The notes beneath the pieces were generated by a model. That model saw only the letters and a list, made by a program, of their open reading frames with translations. It was not told the DNA's origin and searched no databases. From Thermoleophilia bacterium (GTDB taxonomy: Bacteria > Actinomycetota > Thermoleophilia > BMS3ABIN01): DNA of 13,654 nt. Both the position numbers and the translations under genes were made by a program. Positions 5,000 to 13,520 of this stretch are shown here, piece by piece. The stretch lies in the NCBI GenBank assembly GCA_041658605.1, contig JBAZZU010000044.1, positions 1 through 13,654 of the forward strand. Reading direction: 5' to 3'. Within the stretch, counting starts at the first letter, position 1. Every line of letters starts with the position of its first letter.

Positions 5000-5108
5000 T
5001 GTCTTACAAACTCTTGCCTGTCATCCTGAGCTAGCCTGCCATCCCGAGTTAGCCTGACACCCCGACCTTGTCTGTCATCCTGAGCGAAGCGAAGGATCTG
5101 CTTCTCTC
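5000..5108. repeat. Intergenic repeat element A (rmlD-rmlB spacer). It has about five tandem 18-nt units (period starts 5000/5018/5036/5054/5072; CTGTCATCCTGAGCNNNN, degenerate). It ends in the terminal motif GTCATCCTGAGCGAAGCGAAGGATCT and a hairpin (5082-5108).
   Basis: Direct reading gives the units ctgtcttacaaactcttg, ctgtcatcctgagctagc, ctgccatcccgagttagc, ctgacaccccgaccttgt and ctgtcatcctgagcgaag. The terminal motif is shared with the elements at 6505-6545 (inverted) and 7722-7883. Confidence 0.7.
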
Positions 5109-6020
5109 TTAATTATCATCATCCTTCAGCTCGCCCAGCGCCGTCAGACATTCTACCAGCCCGTCGTGCCAGTCGGGCATGATGATCTCGGGAGCACGCG
5201 TATTGGCGAGCACCGAGAAGGCCGGCCTTGGGGCCGGGGCGCCGAATTCGGCGGTCGTCGTCGGCTGCAGGTCGATATCCACGCCTGCCAGCCTGAAGAT
5301 CTCGGCGGCGAAATCGTACCACGTGCACTGGCCGCTGTTGGTCATATGGTAGATGCCGGGCTGGTCCAGCCGGGTTTCGACCAGTTGCCTGATAGCGATC
5401 GCCAGATGCCCCGCGTAGGTCGGTGAGCCATACTGGTCGTTCACGACTTTCAGCTGGTCGCGCTCACGTCCGAGCTTCAGCATGGTCTTTACAAAATTGG
5501 CCCCGTGGTCGCCGAAAAGCCAGGCTGTGCGCACGATCATGCATCGATCCGGCAACGCCATGAGGACCTGCTCCTCGCCCGCCAGCTTGCTGCGGCCATA
5601 CTCCCCAAGCGGCGCCACCGGATCTTTTTCGGTGTAGGCCTCTCCTTTGGTTCCGTCAAAGACATAGTCCGTGCTGATGTGGATCATTGACGCCGGCGCC
5701 TTGCCTAACAAGCCGTAATCCTCAGCGTCAAGTCCCGCACAGGCCCGGGCGATATTGCCGGCGCCCGTGGCGTTCACGGCATATGCCGCATCCTTGTTGG
5801 TCTCGCAGCCGTCGACATTCGTGAATGCTGCTGAGTTTATAACAAGCTCAGGCTTCACATCCACGATGAGCGAGTTGACCGCGGCGGGATCGGTTATGTC
5901 GATCGCCCCTCCCACATCCGTGCCGGGCATATCCGCACCGATCACTTCGTGGTCTGGCGATAAGGTCTTAAGAAGATCATGGCCGAGCTGCCCGGCCGCG
6001 CCTATGACAAGGATTCTCAA
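5109..6020 (-). CDS. rmlD: dTDP-4-dehydrorhamnose reductase (RmlD), TTG start at 6020
   Basis: From the TTG the protein reads '(M)RILVIGAAGQLGHDL...', the canonical RmlD N-terminus, and is about 303 aa. The six-frame ORF extends further upstream only by reading through the rmlC 3' end in another frame, and no in-frame ATG/GTG is available there. Confidence 0.82.
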   Translation of the reverse strand: MRILVIGAAGQLGHDLLKTLSPDHEVIGADMPGTDVGGAIDITDPAAVNSLIVDVKPELVINSAAFTNVDGCETNKDAAYAVNATGAGNIARACAGLDAEDYGLLGKAPASMIHISTDYVFDGTKGEAYTEKDPVAPLGEYGRSKLAGEEQVLMALPDRCMIVRTAWLFGDHGANFVKTMLKLGRERDQLKVVNDQYGSPTYAGHLAIAIRQLVETRLDQPGIYHMTNSGQCTWYDFAAEIFRLAGVDIDLQPTTTAEFGAPAPRPAFSVLANTRAPEIIMPDWHDGLVECLTALGELKDDDN

Positions 6021-6027
6021 AGGTACA

Positions 6028-6483
6028 TCATCCCATCTGGATATCCCAGTCGTACGGGATCTCGTCGGTGTCGAAGGGCAGACGGTACTCGTCGGGGTTC
6101 TTGTAGTCGTAGGTCTCGGTCGAGACATTGACCACGATTCCTTCACGTTCGCTGATGCATTTCCAGCCGTGATAGACGCCCGGTGGTATCTGCAGCAGTT
6201 TGGCGTTGTAGTCACCCAGGAAAAACTCGTTGACCTCGCCCTTCGTGGCAGAGCCCTCGCGCGTGTCATAGAGCACTACCTTGAACATGCCGGTGATGAC
6301 GACGAAGTTGTCGGTCTGTATCTTGTGAAAATGCCAGGCTTTTACCACGCCTGGATAAGTCGTGGTCATGTAACACTGCCCAAACTTGATGAACAGGTCG
6401 TCGTCGGCGCGCAGCATCTCGGTCAAACGGCCGCGTTCGTCGGGCATGACCTTAAGGTCCTTGGTCTTTACTCCCTCAATCAT
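6028..6483 (-). CDS. rmlC: dTDP-4-dehydrorhamnose 3,5-epimerase (short cupin-type RmlC)
   Basis: The 151-aa cupin-like translation contains 'HFHK', 'GVYHGW' and 'VNVSTETYD', characteristic of the RmlC family. It sits between rmlA and rmlD. A strong GGAGG lies 4 nt before the ATG, and its stop is 7 nt before the rmlD start. Confidence 0.72.
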   Translation of the reverse strand: MIEGVKTKDLKVMPDERGRLTEMLRADDDLFIKFGQCYMTTTYPGVVKAWHFHKIQTDNFVVITGMFKVVLYDTREGSATKGEVNEFFLGDYNAKLLQIPPGVYHGWKCISEREGIVVNVSTETYDYKNPDEYRLPFDTDEIPYDWDIQMG

Positions 6484-6504: not shown

Positions 6505-6545
6505 AGATCCTTCGCTTCGCTCAGGATGACAGTAATCTGTCATTC
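6505..6545. repeat. Intergenic repeat element B (rmlA-rmlC spacer): a single inverted copy of the terminal motif (plus strand agatccttcgcttcgctcaggatgac), followed by a partial GTCAT unit
   Basis: The reverse complement of 6505-6530 equals GTCATCCTGAGCGAAGCGAAGGATCT, the same motif as at 5074-5099. Confidence 0.65.
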
Positions 6546-7721: not shown

Positions 7722-7883
7722 TCCTGTCAGCCGGCGACGTATCGTCATCCACATAACATGTTCTGTCATCCTGAGCCAGTTTTGTCATCCACGCAACATG
7801 TTTTGTCATCCGGCACAACAGGTTTTGTCATCCACACAACATGTTTTGTCATCCTGAGCCGCAGGCGAAGGATCTGCTGTGTG
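7722..7883. repeat. Intergenic repeat element C (between the rmlA 5' end and the tRNA). It has six or seven tandem 19-22-nt units starting GTCATCC (unit starts 7744, 7765, 7784, 7805, 7827, 7848), most containing the palindrome AACATGTT. It ends in the terminal motif GTCATCCTGAGCCGCAGGCGAAGGATCTGCTG.
   Basis: Direct reading gives the units gtcatccacataacatgttct, gtcatcctgagccagtttt, gtcatccacgcaacatgtttt, gtcatccggcacaacaggtttt, gtcatccacacaacatgtttt and gtcatcctgagccgcaggcgaaggatctgctg. They abut one another with no spacers between them. Confidence 0.75.
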
Positions 7884-7967: not shown

Positions 7968-8044
7968 GGGCCCATAGCTCAGTTGGTTAGAGCATCCGAC
8001 TCATAATCGGACGGTCGCTGGTTCGAGTCCAGCTGGGCCCACCA
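7968..8044 (+). tRNA. tRNA with anticodon CAT, either tRNA-Ile2 (lysidine-modified) or elongator tRNA-Met, with the 3' CCA encoded
   Basis: A manual cloverleaf fold gives acceptor GGGCCCA/TGGGCCC, D-arm GCTC-AGTTGGTTA-GAGC, anticodon stem TCCGA/TCGGA with loop CTCATAA (anticodon CAT), variable loop CGGTC, T-arm GCTGG-TTCGAGT-CCAGC, and then ACCA. The AGTTGGTTAGAGC D-arm resembles tRNA-Ile. Confidence 0.88.
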
Positions 8045-8096
8045 ATGTCAGACCGCCCGGAAACAATTGATTACCACAATTCCTCTGTCGCTTTTC

Positions 8097-9263
8097 TTAT
8101 TCTTCAGCGCAACTTGCCGTACTGACAGCCGTGTTGTCTTGTATTGCTTGCCGGATCAGCGGTCTGGCTTCGTCAATCATCAATGCATAGCCGACATTGT
8201 TCTGGCTTAAGGATCTGGCAAAAATTATTCCGGCTACGGATCCATCCGCGGCGATCAGCGGTCCGCCGGAATTACCAGGCTCCACATCGACCTGGACTTC
8301 ATAAATATTCCTGATCACCAGTCCCCGGTTATATATGTTGCGCCCCGTGGCAGTCACATGGTCAATGATCACCCCGCTTCCTGCAACCAGGGGACCGCCT
8401 CCAGGATAACCAAGGACTGCGGCAGCGTCATTATTTGGCAGGACCTGACCGGTTAACGCCAGCGGCGGATCGGCGAGACCGTCTACACGCAGCACAGCGA
8501 CGTCGAGATCGGGGTCGAACCAGATCGGCGTCGCCTGATAAGTTCCGCTTCCGTCAACAACTTCAGGAGCGGCAATGCCGCCTACCACATGAGCGTTTGT
8601 CACCACTATCTCATTGTCCACGACGAAACCCGATCCAAAAACCATCCCCCCGCAACCTTCGCCCTGTATTTTAACCACCGAGGCCTCATCATTGATCACT
8701 GCCTGATTATTAACAGTGTTGGACGGAGAAACGGTTGTGTGCTGAGGCTCGAGTCCCAGAAAGACATTCGGAAAGCCGTTGGGACTGATTATCTTTTCCA
8801 GCTGCGCGAAGATATCAGGTGGGGTCGGGAAAATTGCGTCCAGTTTACGGACGATAAGAGACTGCTTTACCGCGCCGCCGATATCATAACTCCGGACATT
8901 GGTCAGGGCGGAAGCCCCCAGCCAGACTACGATAAGAGTAAAGATCACCGCCAGACCGGCCCCGAGCGCCTGATTGAGTCTGCCCAGGTGCAACCGCCTG
9001 GCTACAGTATTTAAACGCAGGCCGGCTATTTCGCCCAGATAGGCAAGAAGCATGGCCAGTCCAAATTCCACACTCAGTACGATAAACAGTTTTACCAGGG
9101 GGTTTGAGGCATGAGGGGCTATCCACATGGCCACCTGTGAGCCGAGTAACAGGCCGGCCACAAAACCGATGGACGACAACAGGAGCTGCATGAGACCGGC
9201 CCTGATCCCTCTGACCACGGCAGACAGCAGAAAAGCAATAATTATCAAATCCAGTATATTCAT
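8097..9263 (-). CDS. Membrane-anchored trypsin-like serine protease: an N-terminal CvpA-family 4-TM domain fused to an S1/chymotrypsin-fold domain (MarP/Rv3671c-like architecture)
   Basis: In the 388-aa translation the first ~120 aa are hydrophobic and CvpA-like. The C-terminal domain carries the catalytic triad motifs 'TNAHVV' (His), 'DLDVAVLRV' (Asp) and 'GNSGGPL' (Ser). Confidence 0.75.
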   Translation of the reverse strand: MNILDLIIIAFLLSAVVRGIRAGLMQLLLSSIGFVAGLLLGSQVAMWIAPHASNPLVKLFIVLSVEFGLAMLLAYLGEIAGLRLNTVARRLHLGRLNQALGAGLAVIFTLIVVWLGASALTNVRSYDIGGAVKQSLIVRKLDAIFPTPPDIFAQLEKIISPNGFPNVFLGLEPQHTTVSPSNTVNNQAVINDEASVVKIQGEGCGGMVFGSGFVVDNEIVVTNAHVVGGIAAPEVVDGSGTYQATPIWFDPDLDVAVLRVDGLADPPLALTGQVLPNNDAAAVLGYPGGGPLVAGSGVIIDHVTATGRNIYNRGLVIRNIYEVQVDVEPGNSGGPLIAADGSVAGIIFARSLSQNNVGYALMIDEARPLIRQAIQDNTAVSTASCAEE

Positions 9264-9393
9264 GTCTCCAGCACAGGCAGGTTTCTATCCAGGAATATCA
9301 TAACGCGAAGTGGTCGCCCACCTTGAAACTGTTTATTGTACTGACTCAGGGTGACACGTAAGTGGTCCAACACCAACTCCGGAATGCTCCCCT

Positions 9394-9415
9394 TTACAGA
9401 ATCCTTACAGAATCT
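9394..9415. repeat. Tandem direct repeat TTACAGAATC x2 (period 12) in the divergent promoter region between the MarP-like gene and the 9519 gene
   Basis: The region reads cctTTACAGAATCctTACAGAATCttgata. It is followed by TTGATA, a possible -35 element. Confidence 0.4.
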
Positions 9416-9518
9416 TGATATTACGCCCGCGCCCCCGGTGTTAAAATTATTGGGTATTATCGTGCAGCATTCGAAGGCGCGGCTCCCGCCGCAAGGCTTT
9501 CATTGGAGGTAAGGGATT

Positions 9519-10058
9519 ATGAGGAATCGGCATAGACTCCTGTCAATATTATTTATGGTGGCGCTATTGATCATTGTTGCCGGTGTGGGTAGTTATGCCC
9601 TGGCACAGTCGAATGACGGAGCTCAGCCGCCGGCCAACGGAGCCAAAGAAGTTTCCCGGCATGTTGATTACGATCTGACCCTGCAGGTAACCGGCGACCT
9701 GTCGGTGGTGGATCCGAAGCTTGCGGGAATCCTGCCTTTGAATCTTAAGGCAACAGGCGGTGCTGATGTCAGTAAGGGTGAGAACGGGCCCGAGGTTGCT
9801 GGAAACCTGCAGGTAAAAGGAATGGATACGATTGTTCAGAAGATAGCCGCTGGAAACGGCGCCAGCGCCGCGCCGTCGGTGCTGGGTGCGGGCATAGTCA
9901 ATAGCGCCCTGTCAGATCTGCAATTCGTCGCGCTGGACAATAACATCTATGTAAAGCTGGCGGGGACCTGGTACAACGCTGGCGATGTATCGAAACATCG
10001 CGGCGGGAAACCGGCTGGTGATTCGATAAATAATTCAGAAAAAAGAAAATCGCATTAA
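9519..10058 (+). CDS. Hypothetical protein with an N-terminal signal anchor/signal peptide (179 aa)
   Basis: The ATG is preceded by GGAGGTAAGGGATT (a strong SD). The N-terminus 'LLSILFMVALLIIVAGVGSYALA' is hydrophobic, and the remainder is Gly/Ala/Val-rich with no motif I recognise. Confidence 0.6.
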   Translation: MRNRHRLLSILFMVALLIIVAGVGSYALAQSNDGAQPPANGAKEVSRHVDYDLTLQVTGDLSVVDPKLAGILPLNLKATGGADVSKGENGPEVAGNLQVKGMDTIVQKIAAGNGASAAPSVLGAGIVNSALSDLQFVALDNNIYVKLAGTWYNAGDVSKHRGGKPAGDSINNSEKRKSH

Positions 10059-10061
10059 AAT

Positions 10062-10088
10062 CATGGGCGGCCCGCAGGGCCGCCCATG
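10062..10088. terminator. Bidirectional intrinsic terminator: a perfect 12-bp GC-rich stem (CATGGGCGGCCC gca GGGCCGCCCATG)
   Basis: The stem starts 3 nt after the stop of the 9519..10058 gene. On the minus strand it is followed by TTTTAATGCGATTTTCTTTTTTCTG (a strong U-tract), which would terminate the flotillin transcript. On the plus strand it is followed by tatctatcc...ctttatttg. Confidence 0.6.
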
Positions 10089-10108
10089 TATCTATCCGCA
10101 GATTCGCT

Positions 10109-10200
10109 TTATTTGTGTCCCTTGTTCGACGCCAGGATGCTACCAAACACGAACCACGTTCCCAGAACAAACCCGAAGTTATACCAGTTACCGATATATC
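10109..10200 (-). pseudogene. Remnant of the 3' end of a paralogue of the 12539..12835 lipoprotein gene. It encodes ...GNWYNFGFVLGTWFVFGSILASNKGHK* and lacks its own 5' half.
   Basis: Positions 10143-10192 match 12569-12618, about 49 of 52 nt by eye with two identical 23-nt runs. The flanks are weaker but translate colinearly, since both copies end in a basic tail followed by a stop. The only in-frame ATG (10261) lies inside the flotillin coding sequence and has no RBS. Confidence 0.5.
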
Positions 10201-10214
10201 GGTCTAACAATCGA

Positions 10215-12251
10215 TTAGCGCGTGGCTTCCGCGGCGCCAGTGTCGTCTCCGGACCTGGCATTCGGTTTTCTAATAGAAGCGGAGCCGCTGCCTGACTTAG
10301 AAGTTCCCTTTTCTATTCGATTGCTAAGATCGACGCCAAGTTTGTCCATGTTCATCAGCATCGAAAGCAGCCCCAAAGAATTTCCCATGGAGCCACTACC
10401 GTCACCATCTCCACCACCGCCCATGTTGACCAGAGTCTCAGGCACCAGGGGTATCCTGCCCTCCTGTATGGCTTTCGTGAACACCTTCGCGACTTCCAGG
10501 GTCAGTTGCCGCTGAGGCCCGCCGAATGCTTCCGATTTAACCAGGATCGCGTGGGCTTCGCCATCGCCGATTGTCGACGCTTTCTCGCCCTCGGCCCGCG
10601 CCAGGGCCTTGATGCTCTCCGCATCCTGCTTGGCCTTGGCCAGCTCAGCCTTGCCCTGGTTCTCATTCACCTGGATATTTATCTGTGACTGGGTAAGCGC
10701 TTTTTGCGCTTCGGCGGCGGCCATGGCTTCATTGAGATTCTTCTCTTTTGCGGCTGCTGCCTGCTGCTGTTCGTAGGTCGTCATCTGCTCTTTGGCGATC
10801 TGGCGGTTTCTCAGCTGGGCCAGGATCATCTCGACATTGGCGTTGTTCGGATCAGCGGATTCCGGTGTGCCGATAAGGACCTCTTCTAATTCCAGGTTGT
10901 AATGCTGGAAGCGTTCCCGCATGTCTGCCGTGGCTTGCGCCTGTATCTCCATGCGGTTCTGGATCAGCTCGATGAAAGTCTTCTTCTGCCCTTCGTTCTT
11001 GAAGTAAGCAGAAACCATCGGATCGAGCGTGTCGTTGACCAGTTTCTTGATCTCGGCAAATCTTTGGATTACCAGCGGCGCGTTTTTGTAGTTGATGTGA
11101 ATGACTACTGAGAGCGGCAGCAGCAGCTCGAAGGCATCCTTGGTTATCATGTTGACCTCGGCGAGGTTCTCATCATACTGATGCGCGCCCGTTTCGCCCG
11201 CGATCCACTTGAGGATGATATTGGTCGTCGGTACCTTACTTATATTGCCGGCGTAGATGTTGAAGGCATACTTGCCCGGCATCAGCGGATCCTGCCAGAC
11301 ACCCCGGTAGCCGTTTTCCACCAATTCTCCGTGCTTGTAATCTTCGCCTGACTGGTCGGCTCCCTTGGGGCCGATATACGAAACCACGACGCCGACGTTG
11401 CCGACTTCGATCACGGTCTTGGGAAGCAGGTCGACGGTAGCGAAAAGACGGTTGATGAAATACGTGCCATCGGTCAGCACCTGATACTGACGGCCGCGCG
11501 AGCCGCATGCCGACAGGAACTTTTCCGGATCCTGGAAGTTGTTGTGGTATGTTGTCGCATCCTTGGGGTTGTCACCGACCGTGGGGGCGATGATATCCTG
11601 ATGGGAAAGAGAAGGCCCGTCGTGCACGGTGACAATGCCCATCTGATCGCTCTCACCTTTTATCACAACGGGAGCAAAGCCATAAAGATTGGACAGAAAG
11701 GTCGACATGCCGAGGATATTCTGGTCTTCTTCCTCATTGCCCATCGGCATGTAGTAAGTCTGGTTGGCGGTCAGGATCACAAACTGGGCCAGGTTAAAAG
11801 CGTAGGTGCCTTCCCGCAATATTGCTCTCTGAGGCCCTTTTTGACCCTCATTGTTTATATAGAAAGGAACATCCTGGAAGTTATTGCCTTCGATCACTTT
11901 TCCAAGAGTTTGCTGTGGCGGGAGCGGCTCGCCGTCCCTGGCGAATATATAGCCGATCTGGCCCTGGGGTATCGTCACGAGGGGGTATCTATGGACGCGG
12001 AACATAATCGGCGTTCGGAAATGGATGCCGCCGCGCAGTATTTCCGGCTGATAACCCGCCTCCCCGTTGAGCGCAATAATGCGACCCTCGAGCGAACCCT
12101 TGGTTGACCACCATTTTTCCACGATGCCCACCTGGTCGCTCTGAATGACGCGAACGCCTATCAATTTGAATATGACAAACAGAAGGAGGATAAAGCCAAG
12201 AATTCCTCCAATAATTGTCAACCATGGAGTCAGCTGCACCGATGCATACAT
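10215..12251 (-). CDS. Flotillin-family / SPFH (band-7) domain membrane protein, YqiK/FloT-like, with a Gly/Ser-rich C-terminal tail
   Basis: The 678-aa protein has a single N-terminal TM helix (LTIIGGILGFILLLFVIFKLIG) and an SPFH-like region. It also has a long Ala/Glu/Gln/Lys-rich coiled-coil, 'EQQQAAAAKEKNLNEAMAAAEAQKALTQSQ...AKAKQDAESIKALARAEGEKA', typical of flotillin EA repeats. 'GGGGDGDGSGSMG' lies near the C-terminus. GAGGAG lies 7 nt before the ATG. Confidence 0.85.
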   Translation of the reverse strand: MYASVQLTPWLTIIGGILGFILLLFVIFKLIGVRVIQSDQVGIVEKWWSTKGSLEGRIIALNGEAGYQPEILRGGIHFRTPIMFRVHRYPLVTIPQGQIGYIFARDGEPLPPQQTLGKVIEGNNFQDVPFYINNEGQKGPQRAILREGTYAFNLAQFVILTANQTYYMPMGNEEEDQNILGMSTFLSNLYGFAPVVIKGESDQMGIVTVHDGPSLSHQDIIAPTVGDNPKDATTYHNNFQDPEKFLSACGSRGRQYQVLTDGTYFINRLFATVDLLPKTVIEVGNVGVVVSYIGPKGADQSGEDYKHGELVENGYRGVWQDPLMPGKYAFNIYAGNISKVPTTNIILKWIAGETGAHQYDENLAEVNMITKDAFELLLPLSVVIHINYKNAPLVIQRFAEIKKLVNDTLDPMVSAYFKNEGQKKTFIELIQNRMEIQAQATADMRERFQHYNLELEEVLIGTPESADPNNANVEMILAQLRNRQIAKEQMTTYEQQQAAAAKEKNLNEAMAAAEAQKALTQSQINIQVNENQGKAELAKAKQDAESIKALARAEGEKASTIGDGEAHAILVKSEAFGGPQRQLTLEVAKVFTKAIQEGRIPLVPETLVNMGGGGDGDGSGSMGNSLGLLSMLMNMDKLGVDLSNRIEKGTSKSGSGSASIRKPNARSGDDTGAAEATR

Positions 12252-12325
12252 GGAATCTCCTCAAGGTGAATGGCCTGGTCGGCAGACCGTGGGTTTGTTG
12301 ACCGGAAGTCTAGCTATGTTAGCGC

Positions 12326-12354
12326 ATTATATTGGTATTGTAATTCGGTGTCTA
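12326..12354 (-). promoter_or_regulatory. Candidate sigma70-type promoter for the flotillin gene: -35 TAGACA (12354-12349), 17-nt spacer, -10 TATAAT (12331-12326)
   Basis: Hexamers were read on the minus strand with consensus spacing. The site is about 75 nt upstream of the flotillin ATG and downstream of the 12379-12413 terminator. Confidence 0.35.
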
Positions 12355-12378
12355 TAGTACTCGTAGTGTTTGCAAGAA

Positions 12379-12413
12379 CGCGTAAAAGCCGGCATCAGCC
12401 CGGCTTTTACGCG
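12379..12413. terminator. Intrinsic terminator hairpin (CGCGTAAAAGCCGG catcagc CCGGCTTTTACGCG) downstream of the small lipoprotein gene. It separates that gene from the flotillin promoter.
   Basis: A perfect 14-bp stem with a 7-nt loop. The stem contains its own U-run, and on the minus strand it is followed by ttcttg. Confidence 0.5.
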
Positions 12414-12538
12414 CAACATAAACATATGCAATATCTGTTATCTAACTGACGCAACGTCTCATTGCATATTCACGCAGTTCACGCAGGCGGGTTTGAATGA
12501 TTGACCGCAACGACCACCCGAAGAAGTGCTCCTGTCGA

Positions 12539-12835
12539 TTACTTCTTCTTTTTCGAAGCCAGTAAGCTTCCAAACACGAACCACGTTCCCAGCATGAACC
12601 CGAAGTTATACCAGTTACCGTTGTTGTGGATCTCGTAAATGCCCACGCCGTCATCAAAGAGGGAGGTGATAAAAGCGATCGGCAGAATCAGTCCATGCCA
12701 TAGCCCGGCCCAGAAGCCTGCAACCCCGGACGAGCCCGCAGTGCCTGTCTGCTGATTCGATTGGGCGCAGCCGCCAATAAGCACCGCAAGTAACAGGCAA
12801 AGCAACAGGATCGATATCGTTTTTCTCCAGTTCAT
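12539..12835 (-). CDS. Small lipoprotein-type membrane protein (98 aa) with a lipobox, two hydrophobic helices and a C-terminal KKKK
   Basis: Signal peptide 'MNWRKTISILLLCLLLAVLIGGC' carries an L-I-G-G-C lipobox. Two hydrophobic segments follow (GFWAGLWHGLILPIAFITSLF and WYNFGFMLGTWFVFGSLLA). The 3' 90 nt are duplicated at 10109-10200. Confidence 0.6.
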   Translation of the reverse strand: MNWRKTISILLLCLLLAVLIGGCAQSNQQTGTAGSSGVAGFWAGLWHGLILPIAFITSLFDDGVGIYEIHNNGNWYNFGFMLGTWFVFGSLLASKKKK

Positions 12836-13133
12836 GGCAGATTCATTCCTTTCCCGGTCCGGCCGTGATGCGGTGTTCGGACAGTACCCTGTTTTGAATA
12901 TGTCACCAGCTGCGATCCATATTCATCGACCACATTCAATCTCCTGTTTGAAGGGAATTAAAACAATAAGAGCCGGTCGGCTGAATCTTGCAACTTATAA
13001 GCTGGAATCGGTTAGATCCACGCAAATCATCCCCGAAATCCTGCATCGTATCTCCGCCTGGTTACACTATCCCGTCAAGTGGGAATCATGTCCACGCATC
13101 AAAAAACAAAAAACCCAGGAGTGGAGGCGGCTG

Positions 13134-13520
13134 ATGTCAATCGAAGACAACAAAGTACTGGCGCGTCGTTACCTTGAGGAAGTCTATTCGAGGGGGAACC
13201 TCGAAGTCATCGATGAGTGCCTTGATCGTGACATCCAGGATCACGAGGAGTTCGGCGACCAGATGCCCGCGGGGCTCGTGGGAGTCAGGGAGCTGGTAAA
13301 GGCGTTCAGGGCGGCTTTCCCGGACATAAGCGTCACTATCGATGATCTGGTGGCGGAGGGCGACAGGGTTTTTATCCGCGCCAGCTGGGTAGGAACCCAT
13401 AAAGGCGAGTTCATGGGGATAAGCCCCACGGGCAAGCGCATCTACTTCTCTTCCATGGATGAGATCCGGGTTGGCGATGACAGGATCAAGGAGCACTGGC
13501 GCATTACCGACACTATATGA
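13134..13520 (+). CDS. SnoaL-like / NTF2-fold predicted ester cyclase (128 aa)
   Basis: The ATG at 13134 is preceded by GGAGG with a 6-nt spacer. The translation 'MSIEDNKVLARRYLEEVYSRGNLEVIDECL...GKRIYFSSMDEIRVGDDRIKEHWRITD' matches the conserved pattern of the SnoaL-like polyketide cyclase / ester cyclase family. The longer six-frame ORF from 12834 is an unsupported 5' extension. Confidence 0.7.
   Translation: MSIEDNKVLARRYLEEVYSRGNLEVIDECLDRDIQDHEEFGDQMPAGLVGVRELVKAFRAAFPDISVTIDDLVAEGDRVFIRASWVGTHKGEFMGISPTGKRIYFSSMDEIRVGDDRIKEHWRITDTI

What the first reader, a model, noticed from the sequence alone, without database searches (positions are those of the whole stretch)
10109..12622. The flotillin gene is bracketed by two direct copies of the same gene 3' end, a signature of rearrangement or insertion
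The last ~90 nt of the 98-aa lipoprotein gene (12539-12630) recur at 10109-10200. Both copies are on the minus strand. The second lies directly after the flotillin stop and before the shared terminator. The core 52 nt are about 94% identical by eye, with two perfect 23-mers at 10143-10165 and 10170-10192 that match 12569-12591 and 12596-12618. The flanks have diverged but remain colinear at the protein level (GNWYNFGFVLGTWFVFGSILASNKGHK* versus GNWYNFGFMLGTWFVFGSLLASKKKK*). The ~2.4-kb flotillin module, with its promoter and terminator, therefore sits between direct repeats. One history consistent with this is an ancient tandem duplication of the small gene followed by replacement of one copy's 5' half by the flotillin module. 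The much higher identity of the core than the flanks then needs explaining, either by gene conversion between the copies or by constraint at the nucleotide level. A third possibility is that this transmembrane helix is a modular C-terminal anchor encoded at several loci.
Basis: seen in the sequence. Interest (0 to 1): 0.6.

Follow-up and report, generated by a model that had tools for sequence, protein, structure and literature searches.

The report
Orphaned gene tail after flotillin gene
The 73-base repeat is real, but the copy after the flotillin-like gene is most likely a leftover tail of a second lipoprotein gene stranded by local rearrangements, which is an ordinary genomic scar and not a new element.

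Summary
Window 10121-10193 and 12548-12620 are direct minus-strand copies, 73 nt, 89% identical, 2427 nt apart, with sharp borders. This is far beyond chance.

The downstream copy is the last 27 codons plus stop of a member of a widespread ~100-aa lipoprotein family. It is followed by a strong terminator hairpin (10062-10088). This ~165-nt island lies between two breakpoints:
- At 10194-10242, homology to the 94%-identical relative L170 is lost. L170 has the same SnoaL-lipoprotein-flotillin order but its own hairpin and no fragment after flotillin.
- At about 10032, the convergent 179-aa gene, the N-terminal half of a ~355-aa family, is cut off.

Flotillin is absent next to the lipoprotein gene in nine of ten relatives' loci. 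None of 160 flotillin loci has the peptide. The fragment's tail is a normal family C-terminus (25/27 to orthologue P0003), so no gene conversion is needed.

A 33-aa ORF (TTG 4 nt after the flotillin stop) cannot be excluded. It has no ribosome-binding site, is not seen in the one close relative that can be checked, and was never called as a gene.

Verdict: an orphaned 3' gene relic whose terminator now serves flotillin. Low interest.

The parts
12539..12835 (-). Full-length 98-aa lipoprotein gene: signal peptide with lipobox LIGGC, two hydrophobic helices and a basic tail. It belongs to a widespread ~100-aa family with no Pfam or NCBIfam model.
   Evidence: ORF. 426 homologues, of which the listed 120 are 85-135 aa, from Thermoleophilia, Aminicenantes, Acidobacteria and Spirochaetales. 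No family hit. Adjacent and divergent to SnoaL, as in L004, L170 and L173.
12548..12620 (-). Upstream repeat copy: codons 72-95 of the lipoprotein gene, encoding GNWYNFGFMLGTWFVFGSLLASKK.
   Evidence: (D2).
10121..10193 (-). Downstream repeat copy, 73 nt, 89% identical to 12548-12620.
   Evidence: D2; sharp borders, bit score 96.9 against a shuffle maximum of 30.1.
10109..10192 (-). Orphaned 3' end of a second lipoprotein-family gene: 27 in-frame codons (GNWYNFGFVLGTWFVFGSILASNKGHK) plus TAA. It lacks the signal peptide, the first helix and the YEIHNN loop.
   Evidence: The peptide matches orthologue P0003 at 25/27, P0049 at 25/27 and the neighbour at 21/26. Nucleotide identity over 66 nt is 89% to the neighbour, 85% to L169 and 82% to L173. 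Differences fall 2/0/6 by codon position.
10033..10108 (-). The relic's intrinsic terminator: a 20-nt spacer, the hairpin CATGGGCGGCCC-TGC-GGGCCGCCCATG (10088-10062) and a T-rich tract. It now ends the flotillin transcript. Its T-tract supplies the last 8 codons and the stop of the truncated convergent gene.
   Evidence: 12 pairs, 10 GC; the hairpin is kept in both the MFE and the centroid structure.
10194..10242 (-). Junction segment of unassigned origin. It contains the last ~8 codons and the stop of flotillin (TAA 10217-10215) and a TTG (10210-10208) that could open a 33-aa ORF. Breakpoint 1 lies somewhere in this segment.
   Evidence: Homology to L170 decays from about 10242. No significant residual similarity to the L170 or L171 tails or to any other fetched locus.
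10215..12251 (-). 678-aa flotillin-like SPFH (Band 7) protein gene, YqiK-like, with a strong Shine-Dalgarno sequence (GAGGAG).
   Evidence: Pfam PF01145, E = 4.6e-14. Thousands of homologues, some named YqiK or SPFH by their sources. Anti-SD pairing -8.6 kcal/mol.
12326..12354 (-). Promoter-like site (TAGACA-17-TATAAT) upstream of flotillin. It follows the hairpin after the lipoprotein gene (about 12384-12408).
   Evidence: 11 of 12 matches. The hairpin was read from the sequence, and one search shows a palindromic self-match there.
9519..10058 (+). Truncated convergent gene X179: the N-terminal half of a ~355-aa secreted or membrane protein family. Breakpoint 2 is at about 10032.
   Evidence: tblastn: X179 residues 1-176 match the first half of the 359-aa L166 gene, and a 355-aa homologue exists in L171. 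X179 is colinear with P0242 (74% identity, 254 aa) up to residue 171 and then diverges.

Best explanation
Window 10109-10193 is the orphaned 3' end (last 27 codons plus stop) of a second copy of the ~100-aa lipoprotein gene. It is still attached to that gene's own intrinsic terminator (hairpin 10062-10088).

This ~165-nt island sits between two rearrangement breakpoints. One lies within ~50 nt of the flotillin stop (10194-10242). The other, at about 10032, removed the C-terminal half of the convergent X gene.

The two copies diverged while both were working genes. This is inferred from the third-position-biased, conservative differences, and from the relic keeping the family-typical residues and tail. 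The truncation is recent. This is inferred from two facts: the only close relative available (94% identical) lacks the fragment after flotillin, and the relic has no frame disruption.

Today the coding part is most likely inert. What the island does, by inference from its position, is supply the terminator for the flotillin transcript and the stop for the truncated X gene.

The most economical origin is one-sided displacement. DNA carrying lipoprotein plus flotillin recombined by homology on the SnoaL/lipoprotein side and joined illegitimately inside the resident lipoprotein gene. That pushed the resident gene's tail and terminator downstream. A paralogue truncated by deletions fits equally well, and the data cannot separate the two.
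For: - The repeat is real and has sharp borders.
- The fragment is in frame with a family-typical C-terminus: 25/27 to P0003, which sits in the orthologous SnoaL-lipoprotein position. The 27-residue tail length is the family mode.
- At the nucleotide level it is closest to its neighbour (59/66) and shares rare synonymous codons with it. Values for other members are 56/66 to L169, 54/66 to L173 and 71-77% for the rest.
- The 8 differences fall 2/0/6 by codon position (P = 0.02), and all replacements are conservative.
- L170 (94% identity over 3.4 kb) shares lipoprotein, intergenic region, promoter and flotillin. It loses homology at about 10242 and carries a different hairpin and no fragment.
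- X179 is the N-terminal half of a ~355-aa family. It leaves its homologue at residue 171 and runs into the terminator's T-tract.
- Flotillin is not next to the lipoprotein gene in nine relatives' loci. In L171 the flotillin ORF sits alone in a different context.
- The region between the lipoprotein gene and tRNA-Met or CvpA-trypsin is variable: 27 nt in L169, a GH10 gene in L166, 4.5 kb here.
- The junctions are reproduced in an independent assembly.
- No usable RBS precedes either candidate start. Neither ORF is on record as a called protein.
Against: - Only one contig of this genome is available, so the supposed parent (a second full-length copy, or the pre-displacement state) has not been seen.
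- L170 ends 73 nt after the flotillin stop. A fragment further downstream there, or secondary loss in L170, cannot be excluded.
- The 27 codons are intact and a TTG lies 4 nt after the flotillin stop, so translation by reinitiation is not ruled out.
- Third-position bias rests on only 8 differences.
- Two breakpoints need either two events or one complex one.
Confidence: 0.72

Rival explanations
1. The stretch is a functional small gene. It would encode a 33-aa single-helix membrane peptide (TTG 10210, MLDRYIGNWYNFGFVLGTWFVFGSILASNKGHK) translated by termination-reinitiation after flotillin, or a 50-aa version starting at ATG 10261. It would be a newly domesticated gene fragment, perhaps acting with the flotillin in the membrane.
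For: The frame is open to a proper stop, with all family-invariant residues kept (G1, Y4, G7, G11). The TTG lies only 4 nt after the flotillin TAA. Differences from the neighbour are biased to third positions. The ORF would be co-transcribed with flotillin, because no terminator lies between them.
Against: Anti-SD pairing is at background level: -3.3 kcal/mol, misplaced 15 nt upstream, for the TTG, and +0.2 for the ATG. Five of seven reference starts in the window give -5.9 to -10.6, and the background median is -2.8. The fragment is absent after flotillin in L170 and in all 160 other flotillin loci. No family member shorter than 85 aa is among the 120 listed. The exhaustive search found only a 69-aa internally deleted member, though that search had low sensitivity. 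Neither ORF exists as a called protein among 15 billion. The codon-position bias is equally explained by divergence before truncation.
Confidence: 0.1
2. The two copies are the target duplication of the flotillin insertion itself, or of a tandem duplication whose second copy had its 5' part replaced by the flotillin module. They have since been kept similar by gene conversion.
For: The repeats are direct and flank the flotillin ORF exactly. The copies are each other's closest relatives at the nucleotide level. The flotillin gene is accessory at this locus.
Against: L170 has flotillin at the same site with the same upstream junction but no downstream copy within 73 nt. No transposase, integrase or terminal inverted repeats lie between the copies. 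At 11% divergence, the relic is the copy that keeps the family-consensus residues and tail, while the working copy is the derived one. That is the opposite of what a decaying duplicate predicts. Gene conversion is unnecessary once the flanks are recognised as a breakpoint and a hypervariable tail. This history also leaves the truncation of X179 unexplained.
Confidence: 0.12
3. The fragment is read as a C-terminal membrane anchor of flotillin, either through a programmed +1 frameshift or because a sequencing frameshift hides a fused ORF.
For: The fragment is in the +1 frame relative to flotillin, and that frame is open from about 10312.
Against: Two independent assemblies are identical here. 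No fragment-like C-terminal helix was found in 160 flotillin loci, nor in the two close relatives L170 and L171, which are 671 and 672 aa. No slippery or prfB-like site is visible by eye at ...ACG CGC TAA TCG. Read in the +1 frame, the 49 nt before the fragment are not lipoprotein-like.
Confidence: 0.02
4. The arrangement is an assembly artefact: a chimeric join at a repeated sequence.
For: The source is a metagenome-assembled contig. The Logan contig L172 ends inside the upstream copy, at 12586.
Against: L172, made by a different assembler from run SRR8449812, is 100% identical through both junctions (8015-12586). The longest exact shared run is only 24 nt, which is too short to mislead standard k-mer assemblies. 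It is not known whether the two assemblies used the same reads.
Confidence: 0.03

Closest known systems
Orphaned 3' gene fragments left by C-terminal displacement or homology-facilitated illegitimate recombination (Rhs, CDI and T6SS effector loci)
   Same: A complete gene is followed downstream by a displaced 3' fragment of a related gene. The two share a short conserved stretch in direct orientation. The proposed mechanism anchors the incoming DNA by homology on one side and joins it illegitimately on the other (PMC5361080, section 13, read; PMC3240628 abstract).
   Different: No toxin, immunity gene or polymorphic C-terminal domain is involved here. The displaced piece is a 27-codon membrane helix of a small lipoprotein. 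What lies between the copies is an unrelated flotillin gene, not a new tip of the same gene. There is a single relic, not an array. The mechanism is inferred, not shown.
Gene remnants (truncated pseudogenes) at indel and rearrangement junctions in variable regions next to tRNA genes
   Same: Two truncated genes (the lipoprotein tail and X179) face each other in a segment whose content differs among relatives. That segment lies between conserved anchors: SnoaL-lipoprotein on one side and CvpA-trypsin/tRNA-Met on the other.
   Different: No integrase, att-like repeat of the tRNA 3' end or mobility gene was seen in the window. It is therefore not a classical tRNA-targeted genomic island.
Transposon-type target-site duplication
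   Same: Direct repeats flank an inserted gene.
   Different: The repeat is 73 nt and 11% diverged, where target duplications are short and identical. There is no transposase and no terminal inverted repeat. A close relative has the insert without the second repeat copy.
Small membrane proteins encoded next to SPFH/flotillin genes (for example NfeD partners; from general knowledge)
   Same: A short hydrophobic ORF lies immediately downstream of, and is co-transcribed with, an SPFH gene.
   Different: The ORF bears no resemblance to NfeD. No Pfam, NCBIfam or other family hit was found. It is not conserved with the flotillin family.

Membership tests
~100-aa lipoprotein family (unnamed; P0001-P0120) | N-terminal signal peptide with a lipobox cysteine | tested here: not met
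   Present in the full copy (LIGGC). Absent from the fragment: the sequence upstream of 10193 is unrelated (24% identity at the repeat offset).
~100-aa lipoprotein family (unnamed; P0001-P0120) | First helix GFWxGLWHGLILP and the loop YEIHNN that precedes the second helix | tested here: not met
   The fragment begins exactly at GNWYNF. Upstream it reads ...NRLLDRYI.
~100-aa lipoprotein family (unnamed; P0001-P0120) | C-terminal GNWYNFGF motif, second helix and short basic tail | tested here: met
   The fragment keeps all four residues that are invariant in the 111 members where the motif was located (G1, Y4, G7, G11). It also has the modal 27-residue tail, and matches P0003 at 25/27.
~100-aa lipoprotein family (unnamed; P0001-P0120) | Protein length of about 85-135 aa | tested here: not met
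   The longest ORF over the fragment is 50 aa, or 33 aa from the TTG. All 120 listed members are 85-135 aa.
Independent small protein-coding gene | Start codon with a ribosome-binding site at functional spacing | tested here: not met
   Anti-SD duplex energies are -3.3 (15 nt away) and +0.2 kcal/mol. Five of seven reference starts in the window give -5.9 to -10.6, and the background median is -2.8.
Independent small protein-coding gene | Conservation as an ORF in related genomes | tested here: not met
   Absent after flotillin in L170 and in 160 flotillin loci. The exact ORFs are not in the 15-billion-protein collection. The only short hit is a 69-aa internally deleted lipoprotein. Only one close relative could be examined.
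Mobile-element insertion with target-site duplication | Transposase or integrase and terminal inverted repeats within the bracketed segment | tested here: not met
   The only long ORF between the copies is the Band_7 protein. No inverted repeat bounds the segment.
Mobile-element insertion with target-site duplication | Both repeat copies present wherever the insert is present at this site | tested here: not met
   L170 has the insert and the upstream copy but no downstream copy within 73 nt. The contig ends there, so this covers the immediate flank only.
Flotillin-like SPFH proteins (YqiK/FloT type) | SPFH/Band 7 domain | tested here: met
   PF01145, E = 4.6e-14, residues 280-498.
Flotillin-like SPFH proteins (YqiK/FloT type) | N-terminal membrane anchor and a C-terminal Ala/Glu/Lys-rich coiled-coil region | tested here: inconclusive
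   Read from the translation only: LTPWLTIIGGILGFILLLFVIFKLIGV at the N-terminus and AAAAKEKNLNEAMAAAEAQKAL...KAELAKAKQDAESIKALARAEGEKA near the C-terminus. No topology or coiled-coil predictor was run.
Flotillin-like SPFH proteins (YqiK/FloT type) | Adjacent NfeD-type partner gene (usual but not universal; from general knowledge) | tested here: not met
   No NfeD hit among the window proteins scanned.
C-terminal displacement loci (Rhs/CDI/T6SS type) | Polymorphic toxin C-terminus with a cognate immunity gene after each orphan | tested here: not met
   The neighbouring genes are a lipoprotein, an SPFH protein, truncated X and CvpA-trypsin. No toxin or immunity families were found. The resemblance is in the mechanism only.
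Programmed ribosomal frameshift fusion | Slippery site, with the fused product conserved in homologues | tested here: not met
   No fragment-like helix was found in or after the flotillin genes of 160 loci, nor in L170 and L171. No slippery motif was seen by eye in 10215-10312.

The most novel reading that the evidence does not exclude
The stranded 27-codon tail has been co-opted as a new micro-gene. It would be a 33-aa single-helix membrane peptide translated by reinitiation 4 nt after the flotillin stop, giving this lineage a flotillin-coupled micropeptide born from a gene fragment.
Probability: 0.08. Interest if true: 0.45.

Novelty: new member of a known kind. Interest (0 to 1): 0.15.

Why it matters
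It matters little beyond annotation hygiene. The stretch should be annotated as a gene remnant, and X179 as a truncated gene, not as new ORFs. The flotillin gene's terminator is a borrowed one. The locus is a small, clean example of how accessory genes are slotted into a variable segment between conserved anchors in uncultured Thermoleophilia, and of how displaced gene tails can donate terminators. It would become moderately interesting only if the 33-aa ORF proved to be translated, as a case of micro-protein birth from a gene fragment.

Tried and rejected
1. By eye, window 10200-10221 seemed to retain the 5' arm of L170's flotillin hairpin (14/21 matches). Local alignment against shuffles showed no significance (score 12 against a shuffle mean of 12.5), so I dropped it. 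Breakpoint 1 can only be placed within 10194-10242.
2. The exhaustive HMMER search with the 33-aa peptide gave 5 hits. Four are tandem-repeat artefacts and one is a 69-aa internally deleted family member. Normal ~100-aa members did not reach threshold, so this is only a weak negative.
3. tblastn of both peptides against 160 flotillin loci found nothing near flotillin.
4. BLAST of the junction segment and of the island terminator against all 173 fetched loci matched only L172, which is the same sequence.
5. Rfam on the whole window found only tRNA-Met. The 97.5% match to L169 is that tRNA.
6. The contig for P0242, the longer X homologue, is not on record, so the intact X neighbourhood in a closer relative could not be seen.
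7. I considered a tandem-duplication model with a junction joining terminator to mid-X, and capture of filler DNA at a single deletion. Neither can be tested with one contig.
8. A whole-genome paralogue count was not possible.


Full report
**What the window is.** The window is a complete 13,654-bp contig of a Thermoleophilia metagenome-assembled genome. The 98-aa protein is recorded at 100% identity under NCBI locus tag WC911_10215 on a contig of exactly this length. Read on the minus strand, the region of interest runs:
- a SnoaL-like gene (divergent);
- a 98-aa lipoprotein gene (12835-12539);
- a hairpin and a promoter-like site;
- a 678-aa SPFH/Band 7 flotillin-like gene (12251-10215);
- the repeat copy;
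- a strong terminator hairpin;
- a convergent 179-aa ORF (9519-10058);
- a CvpA-trypsin gene (9263-8097);
- tRNA-Met (7968-8044).

The rest of the contig encodes rhamnose-pathway and glycosyltransferase genes.

**The observation.** The repeat is real.
- Window 10121-10193 and 12548-12620 are 73 nt, 89% identical without gaps and 2427 nt apart.
- The borders are sharp. At the same offset identity is 18-33% on both sides.
- The self-match scores 96.9 bits, against a maximum of 30.1 in 30 shuffles.
The true pairs are 10143-10165 = 12570-12592 and 10170-10193 = 12597-12620.
- A separately assembled contig from run SRR8449812 (L172) is 100% identical across window 8015-12586. Both junctions around the fragment are therefore reproduced.

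**What the two copies are.**
- The upstream copy is codons 72-95 of a complete gene. That gene belongs to a widespread family of ~100-aa lipoproteins with no Pfam or NCBIfam model (426 hits).
- All 120 listed members are 85-135 aa.
- In the 111 members where the motif could be located, it forms the second hydrophobic helix. It is followed by a short basic tail, most often 27 residues counted from the first Gly.
- The downstream copy is exactly that: 27 in-frame codons (GNWYNFGFVLGTWFVFGSILASNKGHK) and a stop. Nothing of the signal peptide, first helix or YEIHNN loop lies upstream.

Its 'diverged' tail is a normal family tail.
- The peptide matches P0003 at 25/27 (22/22 in the core) and P0049 at 25/27. 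It matches its own neighbour at only 21/26.
- P0003 sits in the orthologous SnoaL-lipoprotein position in L173.
- At the family-variable positions the fragment carries common states (V9, I19). The neighbour and its L170 orthologue carry rarer ones (M9, L19, tail KKKK).

At the DNA level the fragment is still closest to its neighbour.
- The counts are 59/66 to the neighbour, 56/66 to L169 and 54/66 to L173. Other members are 71-77% identical.
- Fragment and neighbour share rare synonymous codons.
- The eight differences fall 2/0/6 by codon position (P = 0.02), and all replacements are conservative.

Together this says the two are sister copies within this lineage, and that they diverged while both were under coding constraint. 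No gene conversion or nucleotide-level constraint is needed to explain 'core better than flanks'. One flank is a breakpoint and the other is a hypervariable tail.

**Synteny.**
- The lipoprotein gene is not followed by flotillin in nine relatives' loci (L001-L004, L165-L169, L173).
- L166 keeps both anchors, lipoprotein and CvpA-trypsin, with a GH10 gene between them.
- In L169 the tRNA-Met gene follows the lipoprotein gene after 27 nt.
- None of 160 loci encoding flotillin relatives (51-67% identity) has the peptide anywhere.
- Two close flotillin relatives exist. L171 (88% aa, 82% nt) carries only the ORF in an unrelated neighbourhood.
- L170 (97% aa; 94% nt over 3,395 nt) shares SnoaL, lipoprotein, intergenic region, promoter and flotillin. 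Its homology with the window fades from about 10242.
- After its own stop, L170 has a different hairpin and no lipoprotein fragment in the 73 nt before the contig ends.

So flotillin is accessory at this site. The fragment's position right after flotillin is not part of the shared lipoprotein-flotillin arrangement.

**A second breakpoint.**
- The convergent 179-aa ORF is only the N-terminal half of a ~355-aa family. It aligns with residues 1-176 of the 359-aa L166 gene, and L171 has a 355-aa homologue.
- It is colinear with the 74%-identical P0242 (254 aa) to residue 171, about window 10032. It then reads eight codons out of the terminator's T-tract.
- The lipoprotein tail and its terminator (hairpin 10088-10062, 12 bp, 10 GC) therefore form an island of about 165 nt between two truncated ends.

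**Is the fragment a gene?**
- A TTG at 10210-10208, 4 nt after the flotillin TAA, would open a 33-aa ORF. An ATG at 10261 would give 50 aa.
- Neither has a usable ribosome-binding site. Anti-SD pairing is -3.3 kcal/mol (misplaced) and +0.2. Five of seven reference starts in the window give -5.9 to -10.6, and the background median is -2.8.
- Neither sequence exists as a called protein in the 15-billion collection, although the neighbouring genes on the same contigs do.
- No stand-alone short homologue was found. The exhaustive search was insensitive for so short and hydrophobic a query.
- The fragment is in the +1 frame relative to flotillin. No homologue carries such a C-terminal helix, and two assemblies agree on the sequence.

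**Most likely explanation.** The fragment is an orphaned 3' gene relic with its terminator. It was stranded by recent rearrangement in a variable segment between conserved anchors. Its terminator now ends the flotillin transcript, and its T-tract closes the truncated X ORF. The anatomy and synteny are shown. The history is inferred.

One-sided displacement fits the sharp 5' border, the intact native tail and terminator, and the relic being the more consensus-like copy. In that model the incoming DNA is anchored by homology in the SnoaL/lipoprotein side and joined illegitimately inside the resident lipoprotein gene. The process is documented as homology-facilitated illegitimate recombination (PMC3240628). 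It has been proposed to leave shifted 3' ends and orphaned regions in T6SS and Rhs loci (PMC5361080). A paralogue trimmed by two deletions fits as well. With one contig the two cannot be separated, and the truncation of X requires an additional or more complex event in either case.

**Verdict.** The rearrangement interpretation is right in outline, but its specifics need revision. The feature is an ordinary genomic scar, and the only mildly novel possibility left open is an unproven 33-aa ORF.

Noticed in passing
window 9519-10058 (+): The 179-aa ORF facing the fragment is a truncated gene. It is the N-terminal half of a ~355-aa family (L166 4260-5339; L171 16773-17840). It leaves its homologue P0242 at residue 171 and ends in the terminator's T-tract.
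   Followed up: yes
window 9394-9529; L173 2-137: The 125 nt upstream of X179 (a promoter-like TTGATA...TAAAAT plus leader) are 86% identical to the end of L173, where they lie next to SnoaL. Coding genes in the same comparison are only 73-78% identical. This may be a conserved leader or regulatory element of the X gene. Rfam found nothing there.
   Followed up: partly
window 7968-8044 (+); L169 1773-1849 (-): In L169, tRNA-Met(CAT) lies 27 nt after the lipoprotein gene. In the window it is 4.5 kb from it. The segment between the lipoprotein gene and this tRNA or CvpA-trypsin is a variable region, and no integrase was seen.
   Followed up: partly
window 5013-5099, 6505-6532, 7739-7864: A family of short repeats has the core TGTCATCCTGAGC. 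It includes three ~43-nt tandem units at 7739-7864, copies at 5013-5085, and a perfect 28-nt inverted pair (5072-5099 / 6505-6532) flanking the RmlD-like ORF 5109-6269. It looks like an intergenic repetitive element and was not analysed.
   Followed up: no
window 10215-10330; L170 9900-10016; L171 9919-10019: The last ~35 residues of the flotillin-like protein are low-complexity and evolve quickly, with indels (678, 671 and 672 aa). Identity between the window and L170 drops there from about 94-97% to about 70% even before homology is lost.
   Followed up: partly
L171 6799-10019: In the 88%-identical relative, the flotillin gene sits downstream of an Imm40-domain gene and upstream of a Cys-rich 92-aa ORF. 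Homology to the window starts only 18 nt before the start codon, so the ORF with its RBS is the conserved unit.
   Followed up: no
window 12834-13520 (+): The mechanical 228-aa ORF over the SnoaL gene is probably too long. Relatives encode 153 aa, and the Pfam domain starts at residue 110. The true start is likely internal, which leaves a ~230-300-nt divergent intergenic region to the lipoprotein gene.
   Followed up: no
L172 ends (window 8015 and 12586): The independent Logan contig stops inside tRNA-Met at one end and inside the upstream repeat copy at the other. The longest exact repeat run is only 24 nt, so the second stop may instead reflect strain variation.
   Followed up: no
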